Positions 441 to 56,804 of a DNA stretch of 61,038 nucleotides are shown here, one piece after another. The notes under the pieces are model-generated. The model did no database searches. It was given only the letters and a program-made list of their open reading frames with translations, and had not been told where the DNA came from. Source of the stretch: Catajapyx aquilonaris. Lineage: Eukaryota. Positions within the stretch are counted from its first letter, which is position 1. Each line of letters begins with the position of its first letter. The DNA lies in contig JYFJ02000553.1 of the NCBI GenBank assembly GCA_000934665.2, positions 62,001 through 123,038 of the forward strand, read 5' to 3'. Made by a program: the position numbers and the translations under genes.

Positions 441-531
441 CAGCTCGGAAACGAGAGGAATCGACTTGCGCCGGGGTCGTATGTCCGGCATGCTGTCGAT
501 GTTGCTGTAGAACGGGTTGTCTCCTGGGTGG
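441..531 (-). CDS. unc-13: unc-13/Munc13 internal coding exon (91 nt), just upstream of the C1 domain region
   Basis: Minus strand reads ctctcattgcag|c CAC CCA GGA GAC AAC CCG TTC TAC...GAG CTG|gtaagt, giving HPGDNPFYSNIDSMPDIRPRRKSIPLVSEL. This matches the conserved Unc-13 IDSMPD..R.K.IPLVS.L motif. Canonical AG/GT; phase 2 in, phase 0 out. Not listed in the ORF track. Confidence 0.95.
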
Positions 532-1235: not shown

Positions 1236-1276
1236 CTCGTGCGACTGCCGCTGTCTCCGGCTCCACTGCCGCCATT
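1236..1276 (-). CDS. unc-13: unc-13 short coding exon (41 nt)
   Basis: ctcttgttgcag|AAT GGC GGC AGT GGA GCC GGA GAC AGC GGC AGT CGC ACG AG|gtacgt gives NGGSGAGDSGSRT(S). Phase 0 in and phase 2 out exactly bridges the giant exon (phase 0) and the 441-531 exon (phase 2). It resembles the remembered NGG...HPGDNPFY linker of insect Unc-13. Confidence 0.9.
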
Positions 1277-3791: not shown

Positions 3792-6700
3792 GCTTTCGAC
3801 CTGTTGTTTCTGTGCGCTTTCTTCCGCCTTGCGTTCTTTCAGGGCTTTCAGCAACTTCCATTTGCTGCCAGGTGGAAAGTCCTTCATGTCTTGAGATGTC
3901 TGACTGAGTGTGTCCAACTTGGCGCTCTCGTCGTCTCCTATTCTGCTGTCTGCCGTGGCCTGCGATTCTCTTCGTCCGATGGACTCCGTTTCGGTCGGAT
4001 GCCGCTCGATTGTGACCTGGGAGTCATCATCTTTTTCGGATGCTAAAAAAACGGCACTTGCACTTCCACTCATGCTTTCTTCTGGACCTGGAAACTGCGG
4101 TGTCTCCAATTCCTCCACAGGTTCAGGCTCTTTGGTTGTTTCTTCACCCGCGTCTTCAACAGTGTCTTCTTCATACGGGCTTTGTCTGGGGCTGTCTGGA
4201 CCGCTGGTTTCTCCGGAAGAATGTTCCTCCGGTTCTGGCTCACCTTCGAACCCCAGCAGTGACGAGGAGCTTGGTATGCTGGTGCTCGGTTTTTCCTCCA
4301 CGTTTGTTCGTGAACTCTCCCGCGACCTTTGCTCTGACCAGCATCCGCTCGAATGAAAAGCGGATTCGGAGCTTTTGACGCTTCCGTCGTCGAAACCATG
4401 GTGTTCCCGCATTCTTTCAGCTCCAGAAGCCAAAGGTGGACCGCTACTTTCGGTGCTGGACATGTAGCTTCCAGTCAGCGAGTCATCCGGATGTTCATGA
4501 AAAGAGCTGCGGAATGAATCGTGGCGACTGTCACTGAAAAATGCTGATTCGGCGGACATGACGCTGGCGGCCATGTCGTCGTCTCCTTCAGCAGCCTCGC
4601 GACTTCCAGGTCTTTTAGGCAAAGGTGGCGGCTCTCGAGGTGGCACTGGAGGCTCTCTAGGTGGCACTGGAGGCTCTCTAGGTGGCACTGGGGGCTCTCT
4701 AGGTGGCACTGGCGGAAGCTGCATCGGCGGTTGTACCGGCGGTGGCTGTACCGGCTCCGGTGGTGCCATTTCAGCCGCTTTTGCCTTCGCTTTCGCCGCA
4801 GCTTCTCTTTCCGCCAGCTTCTCCCTGTACTTAGCTTTAAGCTGCAGCTCTTGAAGCACCAGACACATCCTGCTCTTGGTCTCTTCGTCCGGTTCTGGTG
4901 GCGGTTCCTCCTCAGGAGGCATGTACGGCTCCGGCTGGAACACGGCCGGAAACCGCTCCAGCTCCTCCAGCTTGCGCATCTCGTAGCGATACCACTCGTC
5001 GTCGCTGTCGATGCTCTCCTCTGTGCTTTGTCTCCGGGACGTCCCGAAAGAGGAGCTTGTGCGGAAAGAAGCTGTGCTTCGGTTGTCATCATCTTCAGAC
5101 ATCGCTCGTACGGGAACTTCCAATCTGTTCCGCGATGTTTTCCCACCCTCCACGCCATCTTGTTCCCCCGAGCTCCCAAGGTCGGAGTCTCGAAATGTAC
5201 GAGCGGTATTGTTGAATGATCTGGATGTTGGTGACACTGGTATGATGCCGGCCCCCGCGATGTCTGGCAGCGGAGGACCTTCCTGCTGGTCTTTGGTGGC
5301 CTCCCCGTCCGGAGGCTCCTCCAGTACGCTGGTGGAAGGCGCGCTGCCTGAAGGAGTTGTCGCCGGGGTGCTGTAGCCCTCCTCCAATCCGGTCTGTTCT
5401 TCAGAAAGGGTGGAGGAGTGGCGTTGTCTGTACTTGCCCAGAGCCCTTGACACTGCAAACTCTCCTAAAGAGCTGCCCAGGGTCACTGGTGGCAATTGGA
5501 TAGCGCCACTTCCGCCTTCAGGACCAGGGCGGTCCTCAGACGAAGCGCGTCTTGCATCACCAACTGTTGCAAATAACGCTTCAGAGTCGTCATCCGGAGC
5601 TTGAGCATCAGACATTGGCTCCAGTTCAGACTCACTTTCGTTGCATTCTGACGATGACATCCGCTTGAGCGCTGCTGGTCTGACCCGAGCAAACATGCTT
5701 TCAGGGGCAGCGGATTCGGCCGAAATGTAGCTGTCTTCACTCTCGCTTTCGGAGTGGACAAGATGACGTCCTGACGGGCCGCCCCAGTCAGACTCGGACT
5801 GCTCTGAGTCTGACAGAGATTGGCTGCCCTTCCGTCTCGACTTTAGTATCATGGACATGCTGGACAGGAGCGGATTCTTCCGCTTCTTTCGCGGAAGAGA
5901 ATGGGCGTGGTTCCTATCTCTCAGTCTGGCGGGTATGTCTTCTCTCCTGACACCCAGGGGCAGAGATTGGGATCGGTGTCTGCGACTCGTCAGATTCAGG
6001 TCCGGAAGCCAGCTGCTGACTGACGTCATGGCCGATTTGAGGCTGGACGTCCTCTTTGGCTTCTTCTTGCTGCCGTCATCCTGCTGGTGGGACGGTTTCA
6101 TGTCGGTGGCGATGGAGATGTAGCCCGATTGGGACACTATTATGTTGCTGGAGTCGTAGTATTTGTACGCCGATGGTGGAACTTCGTGTTGGGATGGTCG
6201 ACGTGACTCGGCCCCTTGTTGTTGTTGCTGTTGTTGTTGTTGCTGCTGCTGCTGGGGAGCGTTCTTCTTCTTCAGCTCCAGGTCCAAAGTTGGTCTCTCC
6301 GAACGCTGGTTGTACATATAGGCACGCATGTAGGCTTCTTCTTGATATGTCGAGTGCTGCGTAGTGGAAGGGGGGTAATTTGCTGACTGAGAATATGCGC
6401 CCGCTGGATAATTTATGCCCTGAGAGTATTGAATGTATGCGCCTTGCTGTTGTTGTTGTTGCTGCTGTTGCTGCTGTTGCTGCTGCTGTTGTTGTTGCTG
6501 CTGTTGCTGTTGCAATATCTGCTGCTGCTGTTGCAGCATTTGATGTTGCTGTTGCTGGTACAGATGCTGTTGCAGTTGTTGATTGTGATGATGCTGCAAT
6601 TGATGGTGGAGCTGGTGCTGGTGTTGAAGCTGGTGCTGGATCTGGTGCTGATAAGACGTTTGCGAATAGAGCGCCGGATATGACCTCTTCTGCTCAAAGT

Positions 6701-9605
6701 AAGCCCCAGCAATCTGATGCTGCGCGGGAAGCTCGCTGGCCGAGACAGTGGTCAGAATATTTTCCATAGACTTCATCGACCCCGTCATGCTTCCGTGCCT
6801 ATGCTGCGCGCCTTCTACCGGACTCGGCGAACGTCCGCGTCTTTCGTCCCTTCCTTCCGTCAAGTACGAATCGTAACATGCCGTGTTGGTCGGGTAATAA
6901 GACAATGCGTCTGTCAGATGCCCAGTCGGATACGGATCTTTGATTCTGGTCTTGTCCGACTGCTTTCCAGTGGACATTAGCGACGAGGAGGTGGCTATGA
7001 GCCTCTGGGCGTCGTCTAAAAAGCAAGACGTCTGAGGAATGTTGTTCAGGTCCATCTTTGTGGTCGATAGGGACGCGTGCAAGGGACGAGGACCTTCGCT
7101 GCTGACAACGGCGTAAGCGGTGATTAGACCGGTGTTGGCACTGGTATACACAGCCGTGGAAGCAGGTCTCTGAGTTCCTGCCAGCGAATAAATCACCGAG
7201 CTTTCTGCGGCAGCGGCTGCATCGGCGCTGCTGCTGTGGTGTCGACGCCGGACAGTTGCTGTGCTTCCGATGCCGTCCAAAGGTGCGTTGGACAAACTGG
7301 ACACGTCCGACAAGCTGGATATGCTGGTCAGATCACTCTGACTGGTCTTGACAGGCATGTCGTCAAACGGGGACACTCTCATGGTGGATTCGGATAGTGA
7401 TGCAAGGGGTGTGGGAGACAGAGAACTGATAATGGACGATGCATTTGTGGTGCTCAGGTAAGGGCTGCTGTACTGGTTTGAGAGGGATAAGAACTGGCTG
7501 GTGCTGTCCGTTTCGGACAAGGTGCTGTCGGTGGTGGTGGTTGGGATGCTGCTGAGGTACATGGAATAGGGACTCGTTGTCTTGGCAATCATATCGTCAA
7601 GCGTGCTGGAGAAAGCTGCGTAGCTGACGGACGTCGAAGTGTCGTCCAAGTATCCGGAAAAGGCTCCGGAGGATGCGAGGCCAGAAAAGGTCGGGCTCTT
7701 GGACCTTCTAAGCAAAGTGGAGGATGAGGTGTCGGTCAGGGAGGCGTACGGGGAGGTTAAAGGCAGGCAGGTGCGAGGCAGCGCGGAGGCGGCGAGGTCA
7801 GCGGCCAACTTGGCACTTTTGCTGGGACTACTGGGCGACTTTTCCACGCTGGACCAGCCGCTCAAGGAAGACACACCAGAGTCCGACTTGGCGCCGTACC
7901 GTACCGGCGACCCGGACTTGAGGCGATTGGGCGACCTGGGCGACTTGGGCGAGGCTCTACTGGGCGACTTGGGAGGTGTTGTCCTGGGTGACCTCAACGG
8001 ACTGGTGCTGCTGACCTCCCCGACGCTTTGAAGGAAAAGGGCGGTGTCCACCTCCAGGGCGGACGTTGGAGTTATCGTCGGGGTGCGAGGTCGGGAGGTC
8101 AGCAACGAGCTGCTTAAGCTAGGCTGCAGCAGACCTGAAGCCTCCAAAGCGCTGCAAAAATGAGGGCTGGCAGTACGAGGGCTTCCGATGTACCCGTCCT
8201 GTCTGGTGCGTACCGACCCAATGGATGCGGACACACCCGGAACCTTCTCACTGGACGCCGAGTACACCGTTGGAGAAGCACAGCTGACCGATTTGTACGA
8301 CGCCGCTTTTAGCTCGAAAGACTGTGCCGAAGCCAGGCCGGACAATGGCGATCTGTCCATCATCGCCTTTTCCAGCAGGTCGGTGCTGCCGGCCAGGGCA
8401 TGAAGGCCTGGTATGGTCAGCGGCGACGTGTTGAGTCGCTGCTCGATGTCGCTGAGCAGCGACCGGGTGGGCGACGCGGATGGTTTGTATCCAAGAGCAG
8501 CCGCGACCTCGTTGTCCGTCGTGGTGCTGTCCGACGACAGCTGCGAACTGGACCTGCTCTTGAATCCGGCCGTCAGTTCGTTCAGCTTGCTCATAAAATC
8601 CCAGCCTTCTTGGTCACTCTCGGCGTATATTTGCCTCAGCTGCTCGTCGATGACACTGTCTGAGCTCTTGGCCCCCGCTTCGCCCCTCAGCTTCTGCGGA
8701 GAACCAAGCAGCTTGTTCTGCAGCTCCTTTAAACTCTTCGAGTCCCTCTGGAGCTTTGAACTGAGCCTGTCTATCTCCTGAAGCTTCTGCAAGGCCAGCT
8801 TGTCCAGCACGCTGAACTTGGTGAGCTCGGCCAAGTCCTGCTCGCTGACGCAAGGGGAGTTGCCTCTATAGTCCTTGTAGTCCAACGCACTGAACACTTC
8901 CTGGCTGTCGTTCTCTTCGCTCTTCATTTTATCTTCCTCTACCGCCGGCTTGATCGCCTCTGCCTTGCTTTCCTCCGCGTTTTCATCCGCCTCCCAGATC
9001 ATCCCCAGTTCCGGATCCGTGCTTCCGGACGCCTGGCTCAGATTGTCTCGATGGGCATTGTTGAGGCTGCGATAGAAAGCCTCGTCCAGCTCGCGGTTGG
9101 AAGCTGCGGCGGCTGCAGCGGCGGCGGCGGCGGCAGCGACGGCGCTGTCTACAACATCCGGCTCTGCAGGGGCCGGCTCCGGAGGAATAACTTCCGTCAG
9201 ATCCGGCTCCTTGATTTCTTCTTCTTCTTCCTCCTGCGGGGAAGTGACAGTGACGGCCGTTGTGGTCGTCGCCGACACTTCATCCGGAGGAACGTCCGCC
9301 GCGTCGGTGACGGCCAGCCCTGCCGGAGGTGGTCCCGTGGCGCCCTCGCCCGTGGAGTAGTACTCCAGAAGCTGAGATATGACGTTTTGCTGCTCGTACA
9401 GCAGCACTTCCAGCTTCTCCAGCCTCTCCCACATTTTGATGTACTCTTGGGAAAGGAGATCCAGGGCTCTCCAGGCGTACCGCAACTCGGTTTCCAGGAT
9501 GTTGAGCCGAGTGCCCAGGCGCTCCATGTAATCGCCCAGGAGATAGTCGATGCTTTGGATATAACTCTGCTGCGCCGATGAGGCGCAGCTCTTGAGGGAA
9601 TCCAT
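3792..9605 (-). CDS. unc-13: unc-13 giant isoform-specific N-terminal coding exon (Unc13B-like), ~1938 aa
   Basis: Part of the 2012-aa ORF. ATG at 9605 is in good context (ccaacgATGg) with an in-frame TAG upstream at 9752-9750. Consensus donor GAA AGC|gtaagt at 3792 (phase 0). Islands recalled from insect Unc-13 long isoforms include RLNILETELRYAWRALDLLSQEY, RRQSTEESIDSDDEWYRYEMRKLEE and SKWKLLKALKERK. It splices in frame to the downstream unc-13 exons. The 5' exon boundary is unresolved. Confidence 0.88.
4632..4715 (-). repeat. Coding 21-bp tandem repeat, 4x PPVPPRE
   Basis: Four near-identical ctctct/cg-aggtggcactgg units on the plus strand; protein LPPVPPREPPVPPREPPVPPREPPVPPREPPPLPKRP. 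Confidence 0.9.
6216..6651 (-). repeat. Coding CAG/CAA polyglutamine tracts (Q13 at 6216-6254, ~Q23 at 6444-6512) and a Q/H-rich region
   Basis: ttg/ctg runs on the plus strand, translated in the unc-13 frame. Confidence 0.9.
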
Positions 9606-15153: not shown

Positions 15154-15361
15154 GTTGACGCTCTTTACTCATATTGTTGGGATCATTTCCATGGAAACTT
15201 GAAAAATGGGAAGTTCAGAAGTGCATTCTAGGATGTCCTTTTACTTGATGGCAATTAACAATGTGTCCTCCATCACCGCAGGCCTAGAAAAAAAGCGAGT
15301 GGCTTTTTAGACCTGCGCCCTAGAAAAGATGCGAAGCGTATATAGTGAGGGCTTTTCTAGT
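15154..15361 (+). mobile_element. Helitron-like repeat, 3' portion with duplicated terminal hairpin ending CTAG-T
   Basis: Homologous to the reverse complement of 21261-21440 (gttgac...tttactcatattg...atttccatggaaac.tgaaaa...ttaacaat.tgtc...caggcctagaaaaaa...gcgaagcg...ttttctagt). A GCGAAGC hairpin followed by CTAG is typical of Helitron 3' ends. Confidence 0.65.
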
Positions 15362-21260: not shown

Positions 21261-21440
21261 ACTAGAAAAACCCTCGCTTCGCTCCCTTTTTTCTAGGCCT
21301 GAGGTAATGAACGACATATTGTTAATCGCCTTACTATATAGTCAAAGGACAACATGTAATGCAATAATTATATTCTGAAACATCCTACTTTTCACGTTTC
21401 CATGGAAATGGCATCAGCAATATGAGTAAACAGTGTCAAC
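21261..21440 (-). mobile_element. Helitron-like repeat, 3' portion (second copy)
   Basis: Reverse complement ends caggcctagaaaaaagggagcgaagcgagggtttttCTAGt and is homologous to 15154-15361 and 53734-53804. Confidence 0.65.
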
Positions 21441-33998: not shown

Positions 33999-34091
33999 TG
34001 CCAAGTTTCAGCACTCTCAGTAGTCTGAAAGTGGGTTATGTAGCCATGACATACAAACATGCAGAGAAACTTTACCATTTATACTGTAAGA
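33999..34091 (-). mobile_element. Helitron-like 5' end fragment
   Basis: Reverse complement tcttacagtataaatggtaaagtttctctgcatg...ataacccactttcagactactgagagtgctgaaacttggca matches 53807-53893 and resembles arthropod Helitron 5' ends (TC..TATAAA..GAAAGTTT..TGT..AACTACT..GAAACTTGG). Confidence 0.6.
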
Positions 34092-37000: not shown

Positions 37001-39199
37001 GGAAAACGTGCTCCTTTCCGCCTTGTGGAACTCGGCGACAGACTGAAGGATTTATGTGGAATTGTATTGTCCGTCCAATCAAGACACCCCTCTCTTTGAA
37101 CTCCATCTCAGCAAAGTCTTCTCCTTTTCCAGTGGTCTCACACGCATGACTCCGAATGGCCTTATTTTCGTTTAAGAGTGGGGCACAATGGATGCTCCTT
37201 TATAGCCCAACTTGCTGAGACTGTAAATCAGAAGTTCCTGGAAGTGGGTAATACCAGGTAAAGAGACCCGTAAATGCCATGTGCGTGAGGTAAGAGGCAC
37301 ATATGCTGTCAAGTTTGCACGATCGTCAACACCAGTCGCCTAGTTACGAGCAACTTACCAATAGCCTGTGGTTTACCAATCGTGGTAAACTTACCGTTTT
37401 AACCAAATCAAGGCTCAATAAGTTACCATGGTATCGGACAAACAACCAGTGCGCTTGTGGCCTATAGGGTGTCAATGCGTTTGGGTGGTCGGGAAATCCC
37501 CGCAATCAGATTGCCTGTATAAATGATTTTGAGCGGTTTTCACTCTTCTGGGCGCTTGAACTAGCACCAACCCTTATTGATTGAAAAATTTATTTCAGCT
37601 GACATAATCACTCCGTTCATCAACCAATTTTTAGTCGATTTGAGTATACTTTTAGCTGTAAGAGTTGATCGATTGAGCCATTTTTCAAAAATTGCGCTCT
37701 ATTTCAGCTTGTTTCGAAGATGGAAAAACGCCCATATTATTACGTATGAAAGTGGGGGAAGTGAAATAAAACCTGTTGTTGGATGTCGAGTGATTATAAT
37801 TTTTGAAAATAATTCACACCGAACATTTATCTCCCCCATGCTGCTTATCGGCCCTTTTTCTGTCGAGCCATTCAATTCAGAAAATACTTTGCAACAAAAT
37901 CACTTTAAACGAGTGGTTTTTCCCTGCAATTTTCCCTCATTTTGTGTCCGCAAATTGTTCCTAGCGTTTTCTACGACCCAAGAGAAAATGGGGCTAAAAC
38001 CACTTCCTCTTCAGCACAACAACGCCTCTTAAAATACACATTGTCATGGCATTCTCGTCACCCCATAGTTCACGACAAAGGCTCGAAAATTGACACCACC
38101 CTGCAATGAAAGTGTCAGCTCCCCTTTTGCATCCATTACTTTCTCCACACCCCCATGTTTGTGCACTACCTGAGCTACGACGAAAAAAAAAGCTCCTGAG
38201 AAAAACAAAGTGTCTGGCACACCCGCTCCAGGTTTCTCCTGAGAAGAGCGTCCCATTAAGAAGCTGCGGCAAACGGCCCCATCCTGCATTAAACGCCAAG
38301 CCTCGTAGGCACCAGATGAATATTTCAGAGGAACAGGAACGCAGCCAGCAGGTAGCAGACTCCGGAAAGAGGACCTCTCTCTATACACACACACAGAGCA
38401 GCGTTTCTCCCCTTCAGATCAATACCGAGCTTGGCCTGAGACTATCCCCCCAATAGAGGGGGGCAAAATGATTAGCCGCCACTACAGGAACTGCCACCCC
38501 ATGACGACTTGCGAGATTGCCGGTTCCTATCCCATCACTTTATAGAACAACCCCCTTTCTAAAAATAATATGGGAGGATTCCCCAGCAAGTGGTGGACAA
38601 ATCGGTGTGACCCACCCTTGGATTGGACTGTTGTTTTCTTTTTTTTTTCGGTGGAACACGATTGATGAGGGGGTAATGGCGTCGGACACGTGTCGGATCC
38701 AGAGGGGCCTTAGGACCTCACCTAAACTCATTAGTCGATTCCCAGATGGATGGTTCTGCGACAGAGTGGTATCCACGTGGCTTTTTAACAGAAGGAAGGT
38801 TTCCTTTTGTTGTATTGACCAAGAAGTCTGCCTGTCTCATTTCGCGGGTGCTTGAACACGCAAAGGGTTCCGGACACGCACGGTTCCTCCTAACTCGCGA
38901 TATATTTACTCAAGACACACGCTTCGTCTTTGTTATGCACCAAAGTCCCTCAAACTTTGCCTGGCGATACACCACAAAAAAAGTTAAACTCGCCTGAAGG
39001 GTTGTCCCTTAGGGTGTTGGACGGTCAACCTTTCGAAAGAACGAAGACGCGGCAAAGATTGAGAAGCTCAACATCTAACCCAAACTGGTGTGGAGCATGA
39101 CAAAAATTGTGGGAACATGAGTTAACGTTAACTCAGGTTAACATATACCGGTACCTTATGTTTACAAAGCCACTTTGAAGTTGCATTTTAAGCACAAGC

Positions 39200-45620: not shown

Positions 45621-48600
45621 AAAATTGTTAGGTTAAGATCTTGAACTAAGCCTCTCCAAACTAGAAGCGGGGGAAAAAAAATATTTCAGCTGCTGAGTTG
45701 TGCTATTCATTTCACAGCTGCGTAACTCGAGGGCTCGGTGGTTTCCCACCGTTCATTGCGATTCTCTTCCGGGCCCAAACTTTCATTGCAAATTACAACC
45801 CGGATTCCCAGTGCAGGTGCTCCAGTTTCTTCACCCCCCTTTTCGCCCCCCTCTATACCTCTCTCCAAACCGCATTCAGAGGAGAAAACCCTGATCGCAC
45901 TGCAAAATACGGCACTAATCTAATAACGCCGCCCGGATTCAGTAAGCACTATCTTGATGTCAATGAGAGAGACTCAACTTGGAAGTCAATTAGTACGGAA
46001 AAGCCCTCTGTAGACTGCATGTTAATTTTCCATGCCGTGTCCAATCTGTCGTTTGAACCCGTTTTTTGGGGGGTCAAAGAATTTTTTTGGGCATCAGTCC
46101 AGTACGGGTTTTACAGCCAACTGTGCCGCATCATGAGCCGAATTAATTCCCCAAGCGCAATGACACAGAGCTGCCTGATAAAATTCGGGATTCGGGTCTG
46201 TTTATGCGGTCGGGTCAATGTCATAATTTTGCATGCTGATGAAACGGGACAGGCGAATGCGAAATGGCTATAACAGGGAGGGACGACAAAAGAGGGACTG
46301 ATAGCCGCATGTTCAAAAACAGACTACAAGAACCTAGCATTAAGCCAGAGATCATCAGGTAAAATGCCCGACAATCAAAATAGAGTGCTGGGATTGTAAT
46401 ATGAAAATGCACTTGGTCGACGAATCGACACGATTTTTGTCCGTATAATCTCTTATTGCAAGTAGTGAATTTACACATGCATTCACCTATATGAGTCGAA
46501 CTGCTCGGAATGAGTTCGACTTTGCTTACGGATTCCCATGGGAAATTCCATCTCAGAAGCGAACCTCACTAATGACACCATTTCATAATGAAATCTCTTC
46601 CTCTCTCCATCCAGCCCTTTCTGTTGGATTTCATTTCAAGGGGATAGAAAAATTATTGAAAAAATTTTTTTGCAGCTCGGCGGTGCAGCCAACGGGTGCA
46701 AGTTTCGCCAAAGTCCGTATTTAATTCTGATGTTGGCAGAAGCCTTGCCAACGGTCTCTCAGTTTTTTCCAGTTGGAGGCTCCGCAAAATCCGGGAGGCC
46801 CATATTACTATACATTATATGAAAAAGTGTTCCTCTGAGCGTTATATTTTAACGAGATAATAGTCTCTTCAGAATTAGTAGCCCTCTAAATCACTGTAAG
46901 CGTTCTTACAAAGTGAACAAGTGGGTTTAGCAAAAAGTTGGGAGGCGATTTTGTACACTTTTTTGGTGGGGCCAGAACCTGAATCAAATTAACGGAAGAG
47001 TTTTCAGTCCTTAACAAAAAGCTGAGAAAAAAATCAAAAGGTGCTGCGTGGATATGCCAATTATGCCCATTTGTAAAGCAATGGCCATTTCTGTGCATAT
47101 TTAATTTTATAAGCCTACATGTCTGTACACTAATTTGAAATAAAACTGCGGAAATCGTTAACGACCGGTATTTTTCAGGCCATTGACATCCATTTCGTCG
47201 CTTTCCTTCCGAGCTCTGCGTTATTAATGTCCAAACCTCGTTTTTTCACTATTATTTTCGCAATGGGAAGTCGCCTTATCAGAAATGTAATCGAAACCCA
47301 TCGTACTTCCACGAAAGCAATCAACAATTTATGTCTCTCCACAGTACTCGTTTTGATTTCTTTATTGCCGGTAGTTTTTTTTCCAGCATCATCTGTGATT
47401 ATGTCCGGTCATATCCGGTCTCGCTCCAACCTCGCTTTTGAAGCAGGGACATATATGATAACAAACAGAGCTCCAAAAACCCGGCAATAAATGGCCAGTC
47501 CTTTAAAAATCCACCCATTATTATTTTATACCCTGCACACTACAAAAAACTGCCTTTTGTTTATGGAATCATATTATCGATTAGTAATTCCGTTCGTCTA
47601 TTATAATGACTTTTTTTGCAATTATGAAACAATTAACCCGGGTATAGGTTCCCCAAAAATCCATGGCTATTTGGAAGGCCTTGCAAGGCTGTTATTTCAT
47701 TTCTACTATAATGAAGATGCTATCTGCTGCTCAAACGGGTTCTAATGTGCTTTTCGCCTGATTACAGGCGTGAAATCGGGCCGTACCCTGTACGGCAGTG
47801 GTATTCAATCCGAGATTTACCTCGCACTAATGCCCCGTTCACAAGGTACAATCCCTCGCAGTACATGTAACAACACCACAAAGGCCCTAACCTGCACGTA
47901 GCGTAATTATTCTTATTACGAAGAGCCCGGAATTAAATTGCACGTCGTGTTCATGCCCACCTAATGCATATTTTGCATGAGATAACTTCTTTAGCGAACT
48001 TGCAAGGTCACAGATTTAGGCCACAACTCCACAGGGGTCATACTCATGAGCCCCCGAGTACTCGCTTTGTGCATGAAACAGCAGGGTCTGTGGCGTTTAT
48101 CCTAACACTCTACAGCAACCCATGAGCCTCTCCTGTTTGGAGGGACCGCTTACTTTCAGGATGAAATTTTTTGGAAACTGTTCCAGAGTGCAATAATTAC
48201 GTCCGGCAGATGAATTAAAGGTGCGCATTCCTGTGATGACAACCTGCAGTAAATAATAATGTAATTATTCGACCTACAGTTCTAGAGTTGTGCAAAATTT
48301 ATTTCTGCACGTTTAGCTCATATTTCGGGCAATGGCCATAGTTGCACGGTTACACTGAGGCTACACGTGCCACGGAGTAGGCAATTAAGATTCGCTCTGT
48401 ATTCAGGCCTAAAACTAACAAGGCTCCTAAATAGAGTGTACTGCAAGGCGCCGGGAGTAATATCCCAAGACCTACTCGGCCGCAAATGGCTAGACGTGCG
48501 TGCTAAAAATACAAAAACCTCCGTACTCAACCTTGACCAAAATTCGGTCTAACCCTCCATAAATTACGATGCAACGAAATTCCTAGTGTCGTCCTAACCC

Positions 48601-48749
48601 ACGGTTGGGGACTATAGAGGTATAATATCTTCAACTCTAGCTCTCCATTAGAAATAATTCCTACCCCCTTACCCCGAGATATTTCCAGGAAAAGATGCTC
48701 CAGGGAGTAGAAAACCTTTCGAATTTTCCTAATGACCTCCCCACAATCA

Positions 48750-50100
48750 ATGGGAAGGATGTTCGAGAGCGGATTTTACCTGTTGATACCAGACGCATCT
48801 GGGGGTATTATTTCTGGCGGATGAAACCAGTGGCGGCGAGGGATTTTAATTAAGAGTCGAGGCTCCTTGAGAAGGTTCGTGACTGAAGAAGGTATAAGGC
48901 GGGGCCACTTCATCAGCACCAAAGTTGCTCACAGTTTTAATTGCCTGCTGTGAGGAAAGAAAACCGCTGCGGTAAGATTCGTGACACCGCAATGGGAAAA
49001 GGAGCAAATGTTTCCGGATGATTTATGGTCTTTTTGCCGCTGTTATTTTTTCACCTGCTGATCAATTTGAACGCTGGTTGTACCTGAGAAATCCGTTTCC
49101 ATCAGCCCTAGTAGTAGATAACGAGAGGTTTGGACGGAAGGGAAAAGCCGCAACTTTGCGTCCGTAACACGATTGCCCATTCCAACGTGGAGCCGATGGG
49201 CTTGGCTACTCAAGGGAATAATCGAGGGATCCCCATGTTGACCGGAGACCATCGGACATTTTCACTCGGATTAAAAGAGATTCTAGAAGCCCCCTATGGA
49301 ATCAAGTTGCACCGTTCCAGTTGTTTACCAGCACAAAGGTGCCATTTCTCAGCAGCACGAAACGAAGACAATCTTTTTGTTTGTTCGGGTTTGCCTTGCT
49401 TATACCTCATACCAGGCAGGGTGTGAGAAAGATCTATTGTTGACAATGCACTGGAAATTTTATCCCTCCTTCCAAATGTTTCAATGGGCCATTCAGTGCC
49501 GGGCAGACAATACACGTCATTTGCACTCTCGGAGATGCTCCCCATTTCGCCTTCCAGACAAAATGGATGCCATCAAAGGACTGTAAAGTTCTGTGCAACT
49601 GCGATGGGGCCCACCCTTCAATTATTGTAGTTCAATCTCACTTCCACGATTGACTGTAGAGTTTTGTGGCGGACCTCGGCACAAAAAGGGGAAAAGATTT
49701 GGGCTTCGCCAGGAAGCTCTTCCAAATCTGGGTCCATCCAGTCGGCGGAAGGGAGAAAAAAAGTGCCTGGGAGCCGTCCATTTGTAGATAGCAGACGTAT
49801 ATGAAACGGGCGAAAAGACGCCATCTCCGGGAATGATGGAGAATAATCCCATCCACCGGTTTATGGCACGTGGCGGAATATCCAGACTTTTTTTTACCGA
49901 CAATCCTTCAACCGAGACCCCCATTCCCTCAACGGTGGCTCGCAAAAATGTTTGGCGCACTCGCAGCATTACCTCCATTTTCATATTAATACCGCCCACA
50001 CCAAAGCATGCACTCAGACGAAGAGGGGCATAAAAAATCTGCTCCTGATAACAAACCATGCGGTACACTGGTTTCGACATAAGTTGAGAACTTGTCCTTG
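48750..50100 (+). mobile_element. Decayed BEL/Pao LTR-retrotransposon pol fragment (RNase H and integrase)
   Basis: Ordered degenerate motifs: PDAS (SDAS), LIKSRG (KSRVAP), LCVRNTI (FVANRV), HVDRRPSDIFTR (HV...NPAD..SR), PPFNY, CLGAVHL (C..TRAVHLE), HRFMARGGISRLFFTDN (RRF.ARRG.P..I.SDN), FILIPP (W.FIPP). Confidence 0.5.
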
Positions 50101-50619
50101 CAGTCGCGACATAAAACTCTTCATACTGAACCACGGCCCTAACTTAATCCACCTCTAAAATTTCCACATGCAAAAAAATTCAGGTGCAGCTGGCTGAACC
50201 CTGGATGCTGACACCGCCAGAAGAAATATTAAGGCCCGGGAATGCATTTTTCTAAAGCGTTACTTTTCACTCGTGTCGCTGGTGTCAAGGCCTCCGGAGC
50301 TATTTTCCCAGTCGGTTGTAAATCTTGCAAACTAAAGCTCATTACATCAGACCCCCCCTACCCTATGAATAAAACCAAGATATAATATTTTTTAATTAAC
50401 GGGAAAGGTTATGCCGACGCAAAAAAGCGTACCAGGTGTGCCGTTAATTACGTTGGTACCTTTTGTACGCGTACACAAAAAATGGGAGTTCAATAGAAGC
50501 GACATCCGTGCCAAACATCATCCGACACCTCAGGTGAGACACGGGCACAAAAGAATGTAAATACATCACCAAAATTCACTGATTATTTGAATTTTTTGTG
50601 TCACTTATTCATGTACAAA

Positions 50620-51050
50620 TTCCCCACGGTCGCACAATATCCTGCCCAATGAAATACGATTTCGAATCCTCTCTTCTCTTCGAAGTCCTCATAAGGCTTT
50701 CCGTTTGATGGCAAGGCCTCTCAGCCGCACCATTTCCTGCACCTGCATGCGGTTCGGTGCAGCGAAAATCACATCGCCTCCGGAGAGACTCGGGTCGCAA
50801 TTACACCCAAATTGAGTGCATCCTGCAGCATTCTAGGGTGCAAGCCCGTATAGTTAATTCGGCCGGCCAAGATATTCAGTACAATCCGACTAAATTGGAC
50901 CTTACGCGCAACTGGGACCAGTTGAGTCTGTCCAATTGCACAATTTCTGGTGTTTTTTTTTCTTTCGAGAATATGAATTCAGCAGGTCGTGTTCGAAGAA
51001 GCAGATGGGGATTTCTTGAGGCGTGGTAATGGCTGCTGCAGACCACTCTC
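50620..51050 (-). mobile_element. Possible LTR-retrotransposon integrase remnant
   Basis: CTEPHAGAGNGAAERPCHQTESLMR resembles T.PY.PQ.NG.AER...TL...R. Only a single motif supports it. Confidence 0.3.
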
Positions 51051-51600
51051 CAAGCCCAGCAGCCACCCCCCAAAAAATGAGAGAACATGGCCAGAAAAGT
51101 GAGCCAGCATTTTGGTGCAGCAGCCGACAGAGTTGGACCGGTCCTCATTGATCGCCCGGTACCCGAAATTTCCGGATGTGGAAAGCTGGGGGTTGGAGGG
51201 GAGAGGTGAAAGCACCGGAATGATCATGCGCAGTTTTGCACAACACAGCTCGGGTTCATACATTTTTTTTTTGGTCCTACACTTTCTCCCTCAGGAGAAG
51301 TAGGCTTATCGGTCAAGACACCTGTAGGCAATTTGATTGTAGAAACGGAGTTTGTTCGGGAGCACATGTTTTTCCTGGAAAATATCTGGAGCTTCAATCA
51401 GAGCCTGGGCAGACAGCGTGATAAATTACCTATCCGAACACGGAAGAGGCTTCCTGCCTTTTTCCACGACTCCAATCGAAGTGAGGAATATTCATCCAGC
51501 ACCAGGAAAGAGTTAATTAACTTTCAGATGCTAGGTAGGCAATTATTCCTTAATTGAGGGATCCGACAGAAATGGTTCAGAGTCATCGAATTTTAATGTT

Positions 51601-51700
51601 TGTACTCACCAAACGGCAGCGCACTGGCAGATATCGGTTGAAAAGAGTGGAAATAATTCATGTACTCACCTGGGAAGGAAACAAGAATCTCATTAGTCAC
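51601..51700 (-). promoter_or_regulatory. Candidate recursive splice site (AG|GT at 51670/51669) with a 60-nt cryptic exon (51669-51610)
   Basis: Minus strand: tgactaat (branch A ~-24), gagattcttgtttccttccCAG|GTGAGTACA, then 60 nt later ttG|GTGAGTACA. Same strand as unc-13. Confidence 0.6.
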
Positions 51701-53733
51701 ACTAGTCATTATCAAAGGTGTTGTACAAAAAAAAAGTAGGATTCTGTATATCCATGGTACAACCAAGTTTCTAGGTACAATGTCTCTGCCCATATTACCA
51801 TCCGTCCCTTGAAGTATGGATTTTCTTTCGTCCTCCCTGGAATATCAGAATTCTGAACCATTTCGCAACAATATTGCGTGGGGAAATTGGCTTTTTTTGC
51901 ATTCCAGAATAAAGCCAGGGTAGTGTTCCAGATAGAATATGAACCTCTCCCGCCTTAAATTAAAGAAAGAAATTTTTCTTTAACAATGGAATCTGTCGAT
52001 ACTATTTCTTTAGGCCTGGTTGCACCATCGCCACTTTCGGTTTCGAATGTTATTAACTGTTAGGCAGCACATAATTAATTTTTCTGGTTTTCGTTCCTTA
52101 CACACATTTTTTGTGTCAACCTTTAGCTTATATTATTTTCAATCAGTATTCCAGCCCATTTAAATATTTAATCAAATCGACGGAAATATCACTTTGCTAA
52201 TATCAATATTGATTCAGTCAAAAGACATTTCGTGTCAAATTATTGCATGCAAATTCAAATGGAGAAATAATGACAAACCACCAAAAATAGCTTTCTCGAT
52301 TGGAGTAGCAATGACCTCACATTTTACAAAGTTTCACTCATTTCCGGTCCTAATAATAACCTGTTCTGCCCCTGTAGTGCAATAAGGCGGTGTTAACGCT
52401 TCCGTTGCAATAAAGAAAGGGCTACACCGTTTATTGCTTAGATCCCTCGAGAGCCGACAGAAAGACCTCTTACATATTCTAAGAAATGATGGTATAAGCA
52501 ACTATAGACAGTGCCAGCCTGCTCGACAATAAACGGCTTTTGTCAGGCTCACCCCTCCGCTTTTGTTTATACACACCCGACTGCCTCTAACGCCTTCATT
52601 TTACGACCTGACGCGGCACTTGGACGACTTGCCAAAAGTGTACAAAGTGGATGCATTGGGATTAAAGAGACCGAGTTTAAAACGCTGTTTACACGGACGA
52701 GCAACGACTCGAAATCCTGCTTAGAAAAAAGGTCTCCCGATAACCATTTTATTTTGAGAAAATGGCAAGGCATATTGGAGCCAACTTGCACGCAAAAAAA
52801 AGAAAGTTTGGCATCACGGAAGGCAAGGGTAATGAGTTGAAGTGCGGCCTGAATACTCTAATGAAGGCAGGGGACTGGAGGTACGCTTCCCCGGAAATTG
52901 GTTCAGGGAAGGAATACGTCTCGAGTCTGCTCGTGGGGAAGGTAGGGACACGGGTTACCCGGAATAATAATGTACAAGCTGGTTATAACAGACTGCAGCC
53001 TCTCTAGAGAGAGAGCCGAATGCGCAGTGAAATCACTTTATCCTGTCGCGTACGCAACCCAATAACTTTCCTTGAATTAACCCTACACGACTGATGGATT
53101 TCCCAAATCCTGTGGCTTGGAACAATTGTCTGTGCCGAGGGTTCACAATGGGTACAAATCGGTAATTAATTCGAATCGCAAATTGGGATGCAATTAGCAA
53201 GTTTTTTTTGGGGGGGGACATAAAATGTAAAATGACCCGCTGGTTTTGATTAATTGGAGCAGGCAGAACCATAATTCAGTCGAGTTAGGTGGACGCGAAC
53301 TCATGCCGCGTGAATCCGGGGGAAAATCATACATTTTTCTCACTTTACAACCTGGACACCTGCTGCCCGGCACATCCGGAGTTTTCATTGTGAACGCCAT
53401 TTTTTTACAAAAAATATATGGTCGCCATACTGGTCCATCCAATTCATAACATCTTTCTAGAAATATCGCTTATCTATAACATCCTATTCGTGGTGTTTGA
53501 CCGAGTCCTCTGATTGGTCCCAGCATATTGTTACCGCGACGCTTCGTATTGGCCCGCGTTCTACGCATGCGCAGTGAGTGGAGACAACACTGGTGGGTGG
53601 GAGGGGAAACGTATCCATAAGATCGCTGTCGGCCGGAGGGTCTACTTCGCTCTCTCAACACCCTTTGTAAGCCAGTTAGCACAAGTGTCAGGTTACGTGT
53701 TCTGATAACAGGGCTGTTCGAAAGCCAAATCGT

Positions 53734-53893
53734 TTAACAATATGCCTGCACCACCACAGGCCGCAGGCCTAGAAAAAAGCGATAAAAGCGAGGGTTTTAT
53801 TAGTTAAGTATAAATGGGAAAGTTTCTCTGTATGTTACGTCCCGGCTGCCTAATAACTCACTTTCAGACTACTGAGAGTACTGAAACTTGGCA
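53734..53893 (+). mobile_element. Helitron-like 3' end directly fused to a Helitron-like 5' end
   Basis: 53734-53804 matches the 15.3 kb and 21.3 kb hairpin/CTAG ends (here ttagt); 53807-53893 matches the 34.0 kb 5'-type segment. Confidence 0.6.
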
Positions 53894-56804
53894 CACTCAT
53901 GGCTGATTAAGGGAAAAGTCAGAAACCCAAACTTTTTTTTAAAATGTCTGAGCCCATTTTTTAAATTTTGAGATTCCGGTTTACGTCACTAGTAAAATAT
54001 GCATCTGATTAGGTGTTGTAGAGACATCTTGCACAAAAAAATACCCGGATTGACGCTCACCCGGTCGCTTAGCTAAAAGCCCTCTCTGGGCGTACTTTTA
54101 CCTCGTTGGCGTCCTCTTATTAGGGCACTTGAGTCAATATTCCGGCAGGCAGAATGCGGGCTCGGCAGGGGCTCAGAGAGGGATGGGTTTTTTTTCCCCT
54201 CCCCCCAGCAGCAGCCCTCCGGAGCGGGAACATTGTCCGGTGCGAAACTCTGCGAGGGGCGCCAACCCAATTTCATGTGATGAATATGGATGGACGCCGC
54301 GCCGGGGCCTGGACTGTAGTTCATACTCATCTCTTTTCCTCTTGGAGGAGCCTGTCCGGATATATTATGCGGGTTTTTTTTCTGGTTATCGACTACCCCC
54401 TCGGACGCATACGCATAATTTGGACCCGATGCGTAAAAGCCACTTGTGGAAAACCCTGGGTCTACCGGAAAAACCGGGGCCTGGATTAGTCGTGCAAACT
54501 ATGAGGGTTCCGTCCGTCGAAATTAATTTTCCCTCGGCCTGCTGGTCCTATCCTTTTGTGCTGGCAGTCCAATTCCTTGCTCGGAAGCGGCATTGTTTAG
54601 CAGACAATGCGAGCCGCAGTCGGGACGCGTCCCGAAGAATCGCATTGTGAGAGAGGGGGCCGGAAAGGGCAGAGGGAGGAACTCTCCGGATGGTCAGAAA
54701 CAAGTTGAGCTGTGATTGCCCCTGCTTTATTAGCGGTCTTGATCGTCTAAGGGACAAGACCGATTTGGCGCAAGCCTTTTGTTAGCGGACGCGCTTGAGA
54801 CAAAGGAAGCTAAAGGCGAAATGACAATTTGGCAATGGTTGTGTATTGGCCACAAAATGCGGTAAAAGCGCAATCATTTTAATTTCATTTTAATGGTTGC
54901 TGGTAGTTCAAGTGGCGTAAGTTATTTGCGGCACTGTAAAATTGCAAAATTGCGTTATTTTGGTCGAGTGTAATATTGCAAACAAAATTGAAATTAAATT
55001 ACAGGCAGCTGACTCTGTTACGATCCATTCGGCTGCAAAATTCGGTTATATTTTAAAATGTTACAGTACAGTGCACAACAGCCACGATTAACTTCCAACT
55101 ATGTGTGCACGCTCCTATAATTCTTCCTAGACTGGCAGTAAGAGCATTATTTTTTTTTTAAATAATTGTAGTCAAATGGCATTGCAGGATTTTCATTTGT
55201 GCCTAACCAGACTGTGGAATAATGCGCAAACTATCTCTGCAATGCAATTTTCAGAAGTGGCGCAAAACCTGCAGGCACGTAACTGGGAGGCAGCAACAAA
55301 CAAACAAAAAAAATCTGGAAGGGCCAAAATGAGGTAAACAGTGGAATTGCCACGATTTGTGCTGCAGCTGCCGGCAACCACGTAAATGCAGAAGCCTCGA
55401 TGACATTATGCAGGGTTGGGGGTGTTTTTTGTGTCCCCCCCATAAACCTATCCATGCGCCATGTAATGCATTAGGAAGGCCGGCGTAAAATCTTCGGAAC
55501 GCCATTTGTTGGATATTTAAACCCTGTCGTTTGGTTGCTTGGACCGTGTAATAATAATTTACATCCCAGCCGGACCAGCCCCAGCAATGCTTCAAACGGC
55601 TGCGGAAGCACCGCTTAATGCAAAACAACACACAACAGGTCCCGGAAAAATAATAATAAAAAATACATGTACGCCGCACTTTTTTATCCGTTCATTTGAA
55701 GCCCCGCCGCATAATTGAATCTGACAGGTTAGCCCCACCAGATATTACCTGGGACTAGTCCAAATGACATCGGCGGATTACCCGAATGAAACCGGCGGGA
55801 TTAACCATTCGAGGGGCGGCTCAACTTATGAAGGACCTTAGGTAATTTGTCCGCCTACCCCTGCAGGACTTGGACAAATGACCCGGTGCTGATATAAATT
55901 GTGTGGCGATTTCGCCCCCTCCCGCCCCGCCCTTGGCCACCTGACACTGGCCAGGTCCATGCAACCCCACAGTCTTCTCTCGAAATGCAGCTTTCGGTCC
56001 CAGGGCATTCATCACTTCGGCCCTATCGCCATCTTGCCCCTCTGAAAGGAGGTATCCGTCTGCTGAAGGGCCGATTCCAGTCTTGGTGTCATGTGGATTT
56101 AACGGTCGAGATGCTGCGTTATCGAACTGTGCGAGAGGGCTGCAAATGATCATGCTCCCAGATATTTTTGTTAAGAAATTTTTTCTCTCTCCCTACATGG
56201 CTAGCTCGTGCTGAGTGAAATATTGGTTGCGTTGGCATTTTGTCATTTGCAAGTCACGAGCTTGGTTTTAAAATGGGCTGTCCGGCCGTTTCTTTTACAG
56301 TAAAAATGCGACGTTGCGATAATTATGTTGCAGGCTTGTACTTAATCACAGGGCCTGAACAACGCGGCGACCTAGATTTGAACTTTATTGGATTCCTCGG
56401 GTTCACGTTATCCAACTATTATATTATGATCTGATATAGAGCCATGTATCCCCACTTGGAATAGGAAGATTATGGCATCTCAGTTTGACTGACACTCTAT
56501 CACATAAAAAGCTCAAAAGAGAAAAGCAGGGGAGGATCTGCATTGGGACAGCTCAACAGACAAAATGTTGAACTTGGAACTGACGCTAGTTTATCAAGCT
56601 CAATAGTTTTGACAAAGAATCGCGTAGAAAATGGACGAATATAATTGTCACAATATATTTTTCAAGCATGACGAAGACTGCGCAAGTGAGCATGTATCCT
56701 TAAGGTATGGGTATATACATATAAGGATAGTAATTATTTCTTTCGAAATGCTTGGTTGTGAGTTTAAGAGTGCAAAATTATAGAATGTCCAATGATTTTA
56801 TGTT

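What the first reader, a model, noticed from the sequence alone, without database searches (positions are those of the whole stretch)
51601..51700. Recursive splice site (ratchet point) with a 60-nt cryptic exon deep in the unc-13 intron
Seen: on the gene strand, a branch point TGACTAAT, a polypyrimidine tract and CAG are immediately followed by a consensus donor GTGAGT, with an identical G|GTGAGTACA donor exactly 60 nt downstream. It was the only such strong AG|GT site I found when scanning by eye. Established: long introns of Drosophila and vertebrate neural genes are removed stepwise at AG|GT sites defined by short cryptic RS-exons that often carry stops. If included in phase 0 the exon reads GTG AGT ACA TGA (a poison exon); in phase 1 it is open (GEYMNYFHSFQPISASALPF). 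Inference: recursive splicing, possibly coupled to A/B isoform choice or NMD, in an unc-13 gene. I am not aware of this being described for unc-13.
Basis: partly seen in the sequence, partly recalled or inferred. Interest (0 to 1): 0.72.

Follow-up and report, generated by a model that had tools for sequence, protein, structure and literature searches.

The report
Candidate recursive splice site upstream of unc-13
A textbook-looking "acceptor fused to donor" splice signal with a 60-base cryptic exon sits far upstream of an insect unc-13 exon and is probably a recursive splice site, but no RNA data or related genome could be found to show that it is used.

Summary
On the minus strand a CTAAT branch motif (A at -24) and a 16-nt pyrimidine tract lead into CAG|GTGAGTACA at 51670|51669. 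An identical G|GTGAGTACA donor lies at 51610|51609, bounding a 60-nt exon-like unit. It is the only AGGTRAGT in the window and the best of 404 AGGT sites. The 8-mer alone is at chance level (1 seen, 2.68 expected). The compound signal is not (about 5e-4 to 7e-3 per window, a rough post hoc estimate).

The gene is unc-13. A 2027-codon ORF (3666-9749, minus) is the Unc13A-type N-terminal exon, followed by the exons 1276-1236 and 531-441.

A second insect isoform class, with an N-terminal C2A domain, joins the A-type class exactly at the 1276 exon. It has no exon in the window. If this species has it, the site lies in an intron of at least 59.8 kb. This is inferred, not shown.

The 1276 acceptor is phase 0, so an included exon reads GTG AGT ACA TGA.

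Against: the Drosophila TT at -5/-6 hallmark is absent. No sequencing run was listed, no whole genome is held, and no related DNA reaches the site.

Best reading: a recursive splice site with a cryptic poison RS-exon (about 0.5). It is a new member of a known kind, of modest interest.

The parts
51692..51699 (-). Branch-point-like motif TGACTAAT; the branch A of CTAAT is at 51693, position -24 from the acceptor
   Evidence: Drosophila ratchet-point branch points lie mostly at -36 to -21 (Duff preprint).
51672..51687 (-). Polypyrimidine tract ttcttgtttccttccc (15 of 16 pyrimidines); T at -6 and C at -5
   Evidence: 14 of 20 pyrimidines in -21..-2 by the criterion.
51664..51671 (-). Ratchet-point core AG|GTGAGT, junction 51670|51669
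   Evidence: only match in the window, both strands; first of 404 AGGT sites.
51610..51669 (-). 60-nt exon-like unit (candidate RS-exon); phase 0 reads GTG AGT ACA TGA
   Evidence: Phase 0 follows from the neighbouring exons.
51601..51610 (-). Second donor G|GTGAGTACA, identical to the first over 10 nt; junction 51610|51609
   Evidence: U1 duplex -10.6 kcal/mol, against -9.0, -9.1 and -10.5 for the window's three gene donors.
3792..9605 (-). Coding part of the large Unc13A-type N-terminal exon of unc-13: ATG at 9605, donor 3792|3791 (AGC|GTAAGT, phase 0). Candidate acceptors upstream of the ATG at 9799|9798 and 9704|9703.
1236..1276 (-). First exon common to the A-type and C2A-type isoforms (NGGSGAGDSGSRT.); acceptor 1277|1276 in phase 0; the likely final acceptor of the long intron
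441..531 (-). Conserved common exon (HPGDNPFYSNIDSMPDIRPRRKSIPLVSEL); donor 441|440

Best explanation
The site is an intronic recursive splice site (ratchet point) of unc-13 with a 60-nt cryptic RS-exon.

Proposed path, all steps inferred:
1. Transcripts that start at upstream C2A-type exons beyond the window run through an intron of at least 60 kb. That intron also holds the alternative Unc13A-type exon.
2. The unit 51669-51610 is recognised by exon definition through its branch site, pyrimidine tract, AG and downstream donor.
3. The upstream exon is ligated to 51669. This removes the 5' part of the intron and recreates a donor, xxx|GTGAGTACA.
4. That regenerated donor, in competition with the identical donor at 51609, is spliced to the phase-0 acceptor at 1276.
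5. Use of the regenerated donor leaves no trace in the mRNA. Use of the 51609 donor includes 60 nt with a TGA at codon 4, giving a product expected to be degraded by NMD.

Shown here: the sequence signals, the gene, and the phases of the neighbouring exons. Not shown: transcription through the site, use of the acceptor, and the position of the upstream exon.
For: (1) All the signals of a functional acceptor sit directly against a near-consensus donor, and a second strong donor lies 60 nt downstream. The site ranks first of 404 AGGT sites on both strands. The compound signal is expected about 5e-4 to 7e-3 times per window (rough, post hoc).
(2) It is on the unc-13 strand, 41.9 kb upstream of the A-type exon.
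(3) The premise of a long intron. 13 C2A-type unc-13 proteins came (named there as termite, bug, mealybug, lacewing, bees, sawfly, beetles, mayfly, soldier fly and sandfly). In three same-species pairs the C2A-type and A-type proteins become near-identical from the residues of the small NGG exon, which is window 1276-1236. 0 of the 13 C2A-type N-termini hit the window (best E 0.16), so their exons, if present, lie beyond 61038.
(4) 55 of 55 ORFs of at least 100 aa between 9.8 and 61 kb have no Pfam family, and no Rfam family matches. That fits intron or other non-coding DNA.
(5) Weak strand signals for minus-strand transcription: GGTRAGT occurs 7 times on minus and 0 on plus, and the minus strand has 1.8% G>C and 2.0% T>A skew over 10.1-61 kb (p 0.008 and 0.001).
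(6) Literature. Ratchet points are tandem acceptor-donor pairs with a cryptic RS-exon of about 50 nt (PMC8605326, introduction read). Recursive sites occur in most fly introns over 40 kb (PMC6110457, abstract). RP-sites are enriched on the sense strand of introns over 50 kb in mosquito, bee and beetle as well (PMC2773006, passages).
(7) Phase 0 at 1276 puts a stop at codon 4 of the unit, which fits a cryptic exon that must be skipped.
Against: There is no RNA evidence of any kind and no upstream exon in the window, so 'intronic' is an inference from other insects.

TT at -5/-6 is present in 196 of 197 Drosophila ratchet points but not here (T at -6, C at -5). The window's acceptors at 1276 and 531, and the candidate at 9798, do have TT.

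The core 8-mer is not enriched.

No second ratchet-point-like site exists in the remaining roughly 50 kb.

The two donors are identical in their intronic halves. The regenerated donor could be weaker than the RS-exon donor (U1 duplex -6.9 to -13.6 against -10.6 kcal/mol, depending on the unknown upstream exon end), whereas typical cryptic RS-exons have the weaker donor.

The length of 60 nt is a multiple of three, unlike most cryptic RS-exons.

Conservation could not be examined. Related loci reach at most 8.4 kb upstream and show no such site there. No non-coding similarity to the window was found; the only matches below E 0.01 are CAG/CAA-type repeats in the coding exon.
Confidence: 0.5

Rival explanations
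1. It is a conventional small exon that happens to begin with GTGAGT. It could be a non-coding 5'UTR exon of A-type transcripts started further upstream and spliced 51610>9798, or a regulated cassette or poison exon. In that case it is included in stable RNA rather than serving mainly as a splicing intermediate. This overlaps with the 'expressed RS-exon' class, of which Ubx mI and mII are the known examples.
For: The unit is fully exon-like, with a donor as strong as the window's real donors. Its length of 60 nt is a multiple of three. The A-type exon has candidate acceptors upstream of its ATG (ttttag|G at 9799|9798 and cattcag|T at 9704|9703), so it needs some upstream exon. Nine termite-like loci also show an acceptor-like cag|G about 470 nt before their ATG.
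Against: A random exon starts with GTRAGT about once in 2048. In Drosophila there are fewer than 50 expressed RS-exons against more than 500 intronic ratchet points (PMC8605326, introduction). A nearer candidate donor for the A-type 5'UTR exists at 10060|10059. In phase 0 the unit cannot be coding. The resemblance of the 9798 acceptor to the termite one is not above chance (score 20 against a shuffle mean of 19.3; 117 of 300 shuffles reach it).
Confidence: 0.15
2. It is a chance or unused motif. The region is intergenic or regulatory DNA upstream of the A-type promoter, or it is intronic but the spliceosome ignores the site.
For: The core motif is at chance level. The site was picked after the fact by a reader looking for such motifs. 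No upstream exon is in the window. The TT hallmark at -5/-6 is missing. A candidate first-exon donor at 10059 could mean that A-type transcription starts near 10.1-10.3 kb. In Duff's data only 6% of fly introns above 11 kb were recursive.
Against: The joint occurrence of branch motif, tract, AG|GTGAGT and a second G|GTGAGT at +60 is expected only about 5e-4 to 7e-3 times per window. It lies on the gene strand. The C2A-type isoform class is found across the named orders and joins at 1276, which makes transcription through the site likely.
Confidence: 0.3
3. It is a pair of intronic U1 snRNP binding sites that act without splicing, for example by protecting the long pre-mRNA from premature cleavage and polyadenylation. 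The acceptor-like sequence upstream would then be incidental.
For: Two identical, very strong U1-complementary sites lie 60 nt apart. GGTRAGT is found only on the gene strand (7 on minus, 0 on plus).
Against: This does not explain the branch motif, pyrimidine tract and AG placed exactly against the first site. AATAAA shows no strand bias in 10.1-61 kb (37 on plus, 38 on minus). The total of 7 GGTRAGT is below the shuffle expectation of 11.0.
Confidence: 0.05

Closest known systems
Drosophila intronic ratchet points with cryptic RS-exons (kuz, Bx, luna, Ubx RP; Burnette 2005, Duff 2015, Joseph 2018 and 2021, Pai 2018)
   Same: An acceptor and donor are juxtaposed as AG|GTRAGT. The branch A falls within -36..-21. 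A short downstream cryptic exon has its own donor (60 nt here, about 50 nt typical). The host is a neural gene with a probably very long intron. The cryptic exon carries a premature stop in the relevant frame.
   Different: C rather than T at -5 (TT at -5/-6 in 196 of 197 fly sites). GTGAGT rather than the commoner GTAAGT. The RS-exon donor is identical to the ratchet-point donor, not weaker. The length is a multiple of three. The organism is not Drosophila: its unc-13 N-terminus is only 43-45% identical to the nearest named insects. No RNA or conservation evidence exists.
Ubx microexons mI and mII (expressed RS-exons, 51 nt)
   Same: A short exon of 3n length that begins with a donor consensus, so that splicing to it regenerates a 5' splice site; inclusion or skipping is decided by donor competition.
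   Different: The Ubx microexons are coding and are included in some isoforms. This unit has a stop at codon 4 in the only frame compatible with the downstream exon.
Vertebrate RS-exons and poison exons in long neural genes (Sibley 2015; Blazquez 2018)
   Same: The RS-exon is defined first. Its inclusion yields a product expected to be degraded by NMD. The outcome depends on competition between the regenerated donor and the RS-exon donor.
   Different: A different lineage. The role of the EJC, of promoter choice or of the upstream exon is unknown here.
L-M-R layout of C. elegans unc-13 and the ub/b isoforms of vertebrate Munc13-2 (recalled, not taken from a call)
   Same: C2A-type exons lie upstream, an alternative N-terminal exon with its own start lies in the middle, and the common exons follow. 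This is the layout inferred here.
   Different: For this window the layout is inferred from protein isoforms of other insects, not seen in its own DNA.

Membership tests
Intronic ratchet point (recursive splice site), Drosophila definition | [quoted passage not shown] | tested here: met
   CAG|GTGAGTACA at 51670|51669; first of 404 AGGT sites.
Intronic ratchet point (recursive splice site), Drosophila definition | Prominent pyrimidine tract with TT at -5 and -6 (196 of 197 fly ratchet points; Duff preprint) | tested here: not met
   The tract is strong (15 of 16 pyrimidines), but -6 is T and -5 is C. The rule is known only for Drosophila.
Intronic ratchet point (recursive splice site), Drosophila definition | Branch point at about -36 to -21 | tested here: met
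   CTAAT with its A at -24. This is a sequence motif only; branch use was not tested.
Intronic ratchet point (recursive splice site), Drosophila definition | Lies on the sense strand inside a very long intron (over 11 kb, typically over 40 kb) | tested here: inconclusive
   It is on the unc-13 strand, but no upstream exon is in the window. An intron of at least 59.8 kb is inferred from C2A-type isoforms of other insects that join at exon 1276 and have 0 of 13 hits in the window.
Intronic ratchet point (recursive splice site), Drosophila definition | Downstream cryptic RS-exon (about 50 nt) ending in a donor | tested here: met
   A 60-nt unit ending in G|GTGAGTACA.
Intronic ratchet point (recursive splice site), Drosophila definition | The ratchet-point donor is stronger than the RS-exon donor, so the cryptic exon is skipped | tested here: inconclusive
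   The intronic halves are identical. The U1 duplex of the regenerated donor is -6.9 to -13.6 kcal/mol depending on the unknown upstream exon end, against -10.6 for the RS-exon donor.
Intronic ratchet point (recursive splice site), Drosophila definition | The SA|SD motif is conserved among related species | tested here: inconclusive
   The metagenome pattern scan gave 0 hits. The 14 related loci reach at most 8.4 kb upstream and are distant relatives. No genome of this species or of a close relative is held.
Intronic ratchet point (recursive splice site), Drosophila definition | Exon-to-ratchet-point junction reads, sawtooth read density, recursive lariats | not testable with these tools
   No sequencing run was listed for 46601-56600, so read laying could not be used.
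Poison (NMD-coupled) exon | A premature stop in the frame set by the flanking coding exons | tested here: met
   Acceptor 1277|1276 and donor 3792|3791 are phase 0, and phase 0 of the unit reads GTG AGT ACA TGA.
Poison (NMD-coupled) exon | Inclusion in a fraction of transcripts, stabilised when NMD is blocked | not testable with these tools
   No RNA data.
Expressed coding RS-exon (Ubx mI/mII type) | Open reading frame in the phase of the flanking exons | tested here: not met
   A stop at codon 4 in phase 0. The open frame (GEYMNYFH...) is incompatible with the phase-0 acceptor at 1276.

The most novel reading that the evidence does not exclude
The ratchet point and its equally strong RS-exon donor form a tunable switch specific to transcripts from the far-upstream C2A-type promoter. 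Whenever the regenerated donor loses to the identical downstream donor, a 60-nt stop-carrying exon is included and the C2A-type message is destroyed by NMD. Transcripts from the internal Unc13A-type promoter never meet the site. Recursive splicing would then set the ratio of unc-13 N-terminal isoforms, which in flies govern how release sites couple to calcium channels.
Probability: 0.08. Interest if true: 0.6.

Novelty: new member of a known kind. Interest (0 to 1): 0.3.

Why it matters
Recursive splicing is documented by RNA data mainly in Drosophila and in a few vertebrate genes. For other insects only motif enrichment has been reported (PMC2773006, passages). A verified site in a non-drosophilid unc-13 would add a case in a core synaptic gene whose N-terminal isoforms are functionally distinct.

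The case would also be unusual because the two competing donors are identical and the cryptic exon is a stop-carrying 3n unit. That makes it a natural test of the donor-competition model.

As it stands it is a well-formed prediction, not a finding. The library search for 'recursive splicing' together with 'unc-13' returned 2 papers, and neither links the two. The held supplements of PMC6110457, PMC8605326 and PMC10156609 contain no unc-13 or UNC13 entry. The supplementary tables of Duff 2015 and Joseph 2018 were not available to me and could list a fly unc-13 site.

Tried and rejected
- Whole genome: none is held, so genome-wide copy number and the upstream exons could not be examined.
- Sequencing runs: for window 46601-56600, kind rna, none was listed. 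The single search was then spent, so read laying could not be used.
- Earlier notes of this scan: nothing by place, by sequence or by words.
- Metagenome pattern scan for the architecture (14 specified bases, a gap of 44-56, then 8 specified bases): 0 matches.
- The search for related loci with an 8-row N-terminal alignment: 14 loci. Most were termite-like by their N-termini, with upstream flanks of 0.6-8.4 kb. There was no AGGTRAGT upstream of the exon on either strand. The gene-strand matches, in 5 of the 14 loci, all lie downstream of the start of the match.
- blastn of those upstream flanks against the window: only short chance matches, apart from CAG/CAA-type repeat matches to the coding exon.
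- Resemblance between the window's candidate acceptor at 9798 and the termite acceptor: not above chance.
- Tandem-duplication origin of the second donor: no similarity beyond the 10-mer (804 of 2000 shuffles reach the score).
- Repeat membership within the window: none.
- Pfam on 55 ORFs of at least 100 aa in 9.8-61 kb: 0 families. Pfam on the big ORF: 0 families. Rfam: 0 matches.
An empirical count over the window's own positions replaced it.
- One literature search with insect genus names was too loose to be useful.
- The open-frame peptide GEYMNYFHSFQPISASALPF was not searched. The phase of exon 1276 rules that frame out.

Full report
**Observation**

- TGACTAAT lies at 51699-51692. The A of CTAAT is 24 nt from the acceptor.
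- The tract ttcttgtttccttccc lies at 51687-51672.
- CAG ends at 51670 and GTGAGTACA starts at 51669.
- The same G|GTGAGTACA recurs with its junction at 51610|51609.
- The enclosed unit, 51669-51610, is exactly 60 nt.
- Phase 0 reads GTG AGT ACA TGA. One of the other two frames is open.

**Is it more than chance?**

AGGTRAGT occurs once on the two strands of the window, against 2.68 +/- 1.65 in dinucleotide-preserving shuffles. The 10-mer, at up to one mismatch, occurs twice against 2.28 expected. The core motif by itself is therefore ordinary.

The conjunction is not ordinary.
- Among all positions of the real window, 0.6-0.9% have both at least 14 of 20 pyrimidines upstream and a CTRAY motif in the branch window.
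- 2.1-3.2% of positions have a GTRAGT 25-105 nt downstream.
- Multiplying these as if independent gives about 5e-4 compound sites per window, or about 7e-3 without the branch motif.
- These figures are rough, and the criteria were chosen after seeing the site.

On two simple proxy scores (pyrimidine content of the acceptor, match to the donor consensus) the site is first of 404 AGGT sites on both strands, and nothing else comes close. The region is not repeated within the window. Beyond the 10-mer there is no residual similarity that would point to a tandem duplication.

**The gene**

The 2027-codon ORF at 3666-9749 (minus) matches the N-terminal exon of insect unc-13 proteins. Of the scored candidates, 239 proteins have E<=1e-3. 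The best are termite, cockroach, beetle and hymenopteran proteins at 43-45% identity over at least 93% of the first 500 residues.
- Of the first 60 homologues, whose N-termini were printed, nearly all start at the methionine of this exon.
- Of the 205 proteins held, 114 carry the Y(M/I)(E/K)RL motif within their first 80 residues. One partial model carries it further in.
- The exon ends at 3792|3791 (AGC|GTAAGT, phase 0).
- It is followed by a 41-nt exon at 1276-1236 (cag|AAT GGC GGC ..., encoding NGGSGAGDSGSRT).
- Next comes the highly conserved exon 531-441 (HPGDNPFYSNIDSMPDIRPRRKSIPLVSEL).
- The motif GSKWKLLKALKERK at the end of the large exon is shared with the long Drosophila isoforms. 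It is absent from the 2871-aa D. melanogaster isoform that starts MTHY.
- A figure legend in bioRxiv 10.1101/2025.01.10.632340 (passages read) says the calmodulin-binding domain is present only in Unc13A. I therefore call this exon Unc13A-type. That the motif is the calmodulin site is my inference.

**Is the site in an intron?**

The window holds no exon upstream of the A-type exon.
- No protein or 46 hits beyond 9800.
- 55 of 55 ORFs of at least 100 aa there lack any Pfam family.
- Rfam finds nothing.

A search with the common region of a termite unc-13 revealed a second N-terminal class in named insects of many orders. It starts with a C2A domain (MSLLSVTVKKARY...); 13 such proteins were collected.
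- In three same-species pairs (Zootermopsis, Chrysoperla, Onthophagus) the C2A-type and A-type proteins become near-identical from the residues encoded by the small NGG exon. That exon is window exon 1276.
- None of the 13 C2A-type N-termini has a match in the window (best E 0.16). Motif scans for the C2A core and for the RWHWAYNK helix found nothing convincing.
- The A-type exon is only 2.5 kb from exon 1276. The C2A-type exons, if this species has them, must therefore lie beyond 61038.
- Their last intron would then be at least 59.8 kb and would contain both the candidate site and the A-type exon.
- This matches the L-M-R layout I recall for C. elegans unc-13 (recalled, not from a call).
- It remains an inference: the species could lack the C2A class, as the Drosophila isoforms listed seem to.

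Weak independent hints that the minus strand is transcribed:
- GGTRAGT occurs 7 times on minus and 0 on plus.
- The minus strand shows small G>C (1.8%) and T>A (2.0%) skews over 10.1-61 kb.
- AATAAA shows no strand bias (37 against 38).

**Mechanism**

If the premise holds, the signals match the RS-exon model described for Drosophila (PMC8605326, introduction read). The unit is defined as an exon, the upstream exon is ligated to it, and the regenerated donor then competes with the RS-exon donor.

Both donor 3792|3791 and acceptor 1277|1276 are phase 0. Any coding exon that splices in frame to 1276 must therefore end in phase 0. Inclusion of the unit would then insert GTG AGT ACA TGA, a premature stop.

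U1-duplex energies rank the donors as follows.

| Donor | U1 duplex (kcal/mol) |
|---|---|
| RS-exon donor, 51610\|51609 | -10.6 |
| Big-exon donor, 3792\|3791 | -9.0 |
| Exon 1276-1236 donor | -9.1 |
| Exon 531-441 donor | -10.5 |
| Regenerated ratchet-point donor | -6.9 to -13.6, depending on the unknown last bases of the upstream exon |

The outcome of the competition is therefore open. This differs from typical cryptic RS-exons, whose donors are weaker.

**Comparison with known ratchet points**

The Duff et al. preprint (10.1101/006163, whole text read) gives these figures.
- Recursive introns span 11-133 kb (mean 45 kb).
- Removed segments span 2.6-63.6 kb.
- Branch points lie mostly at -36 to -21.
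- TT at -5/-6 is present in 196 of 197 ratchet points.

Here the segment from the site to 1276 would be 50.4 kb, and the branch motif is at -24. Both are in range. Position -5 is C, however, so the TT hallmark is not met. The window's other acceptors (1276, 531 and the candidate at 9798) do have TT. Whether the rule holds outside Drosophila is unknown.

Pai et al. state that recursive sites occur in most fly introns over 40 kb (PMC6110457, abstract). Shepard et al. report sense-strand enrichment of RP-sites in introns over 50 kb of mosquito, bee and beetle (PMC2773006, passages). These two papers raise the prior for a real site in such an intron.

**What could not be done**

- No whole genome is held.
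- No sequencing run was listed, so there are no junctions, saw-tooth or lariats to examine.
- The scan's own notes were empty.
- A metagenome scan for the architecture found nothing.
- The 14 related loci reach at most 8.4 kb upstream. They carry no such site there and share no non-coding similarity with the window.
- Nine termite-like loci show an acceptor-like cag|G about 470 nt before their ATG. The window has ttttag|G about 190 nt before its ATG. The similarity between the two is not above chance.

**Literature on unc-13**

Two papers in the library hold both 'recursive splicing' and 'unc-13', and neither connects them. The held supplements of three recursive-splicing papers contain no unc-13 entry. 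The supplementary tables of Duff 2015 and Joseph 2018 were not seen.

**Verdict**

- I put about 0.5 on a functional recursive splice site with a cryptic, stop-carrying RS-exon.
- I put about 0.15 on an ordinary (or expressed RS-) exon, for example in a 5'UTR.
- I put about 0.3 on an unused or chance motif and about 0.05 on a splicing-independent U1 site.
- It would be a new member of a known kind.
- Interest is modest (0.3) until RNA evidence exists.

Noticed in passing
window 3666-9749 (-): The Unc13A-type exon holds long glutamine runs (about 6200-6650), four tandem PPVPPREP units, and serine-rich low-complexity stretches. Pfam finds no domain in it. Its N-terminal coiled-coil-like block DYMERLGTRLNILETELRYAWRALDLLSQEYIKMWERLEKLE is nearly invariant across insect orders.
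   Followed up: partly
window 33999-34085 and 53807-53893: An inverted repeat pair, 90 nt at 84% identity and 19.7 kb apart, brackets the candidate site. On one pre-mRNA the two copies could pair. They could equally be two copies of a small mobile element.
   Followed up: no
window 15154-15293 and 21287-21440: A second inverted repeat pair, 154 nt at 75% identity and about 6 kb apart.
   Followed up: no
window 2014-2140 and 2195-2322: A direct repeat of about 129 nt at 84% identity in the 2.5-kb intron between the A-type exon and exon 1276.
   Followed up: no
window 37353-37395 (-): Two G|GTAAGT donors lie 36 nt apart on the gene strand (ACG|GTAAGTTTACC ... TTG|GTAAGTTGC), with no acceptor directly upstream. 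GGTRAGT occurs 7 times on the minus strand and never on the plus strand.
   Followed up: partly
window 9700-10060 (-): Candidate acceptors ttttag|G (9799|9798) and cattcag|T (9704|9703) lie upstream of the A-type ATG. A strong donor TGG|GTGAGTG lies at 10060|10059. Together they suggest a short 5'UTR intron and possibly a promoter near 10.1-10.3 kb.
   Followed up: partly
proteins P0123-P0203: Insect unc-13 has at least three N-terminal classes. One is A-type (coiled coil, KWKLLK motif). One is C2A-type (MSLLSVTVKK..., RWHWAYNKI motif), seen in 13 proteins of many orders. One is the MTHY/MWYD type, seen only in higher flies in this list. No Drosophila protein in the list is C2A-type.
   Followed up: partly
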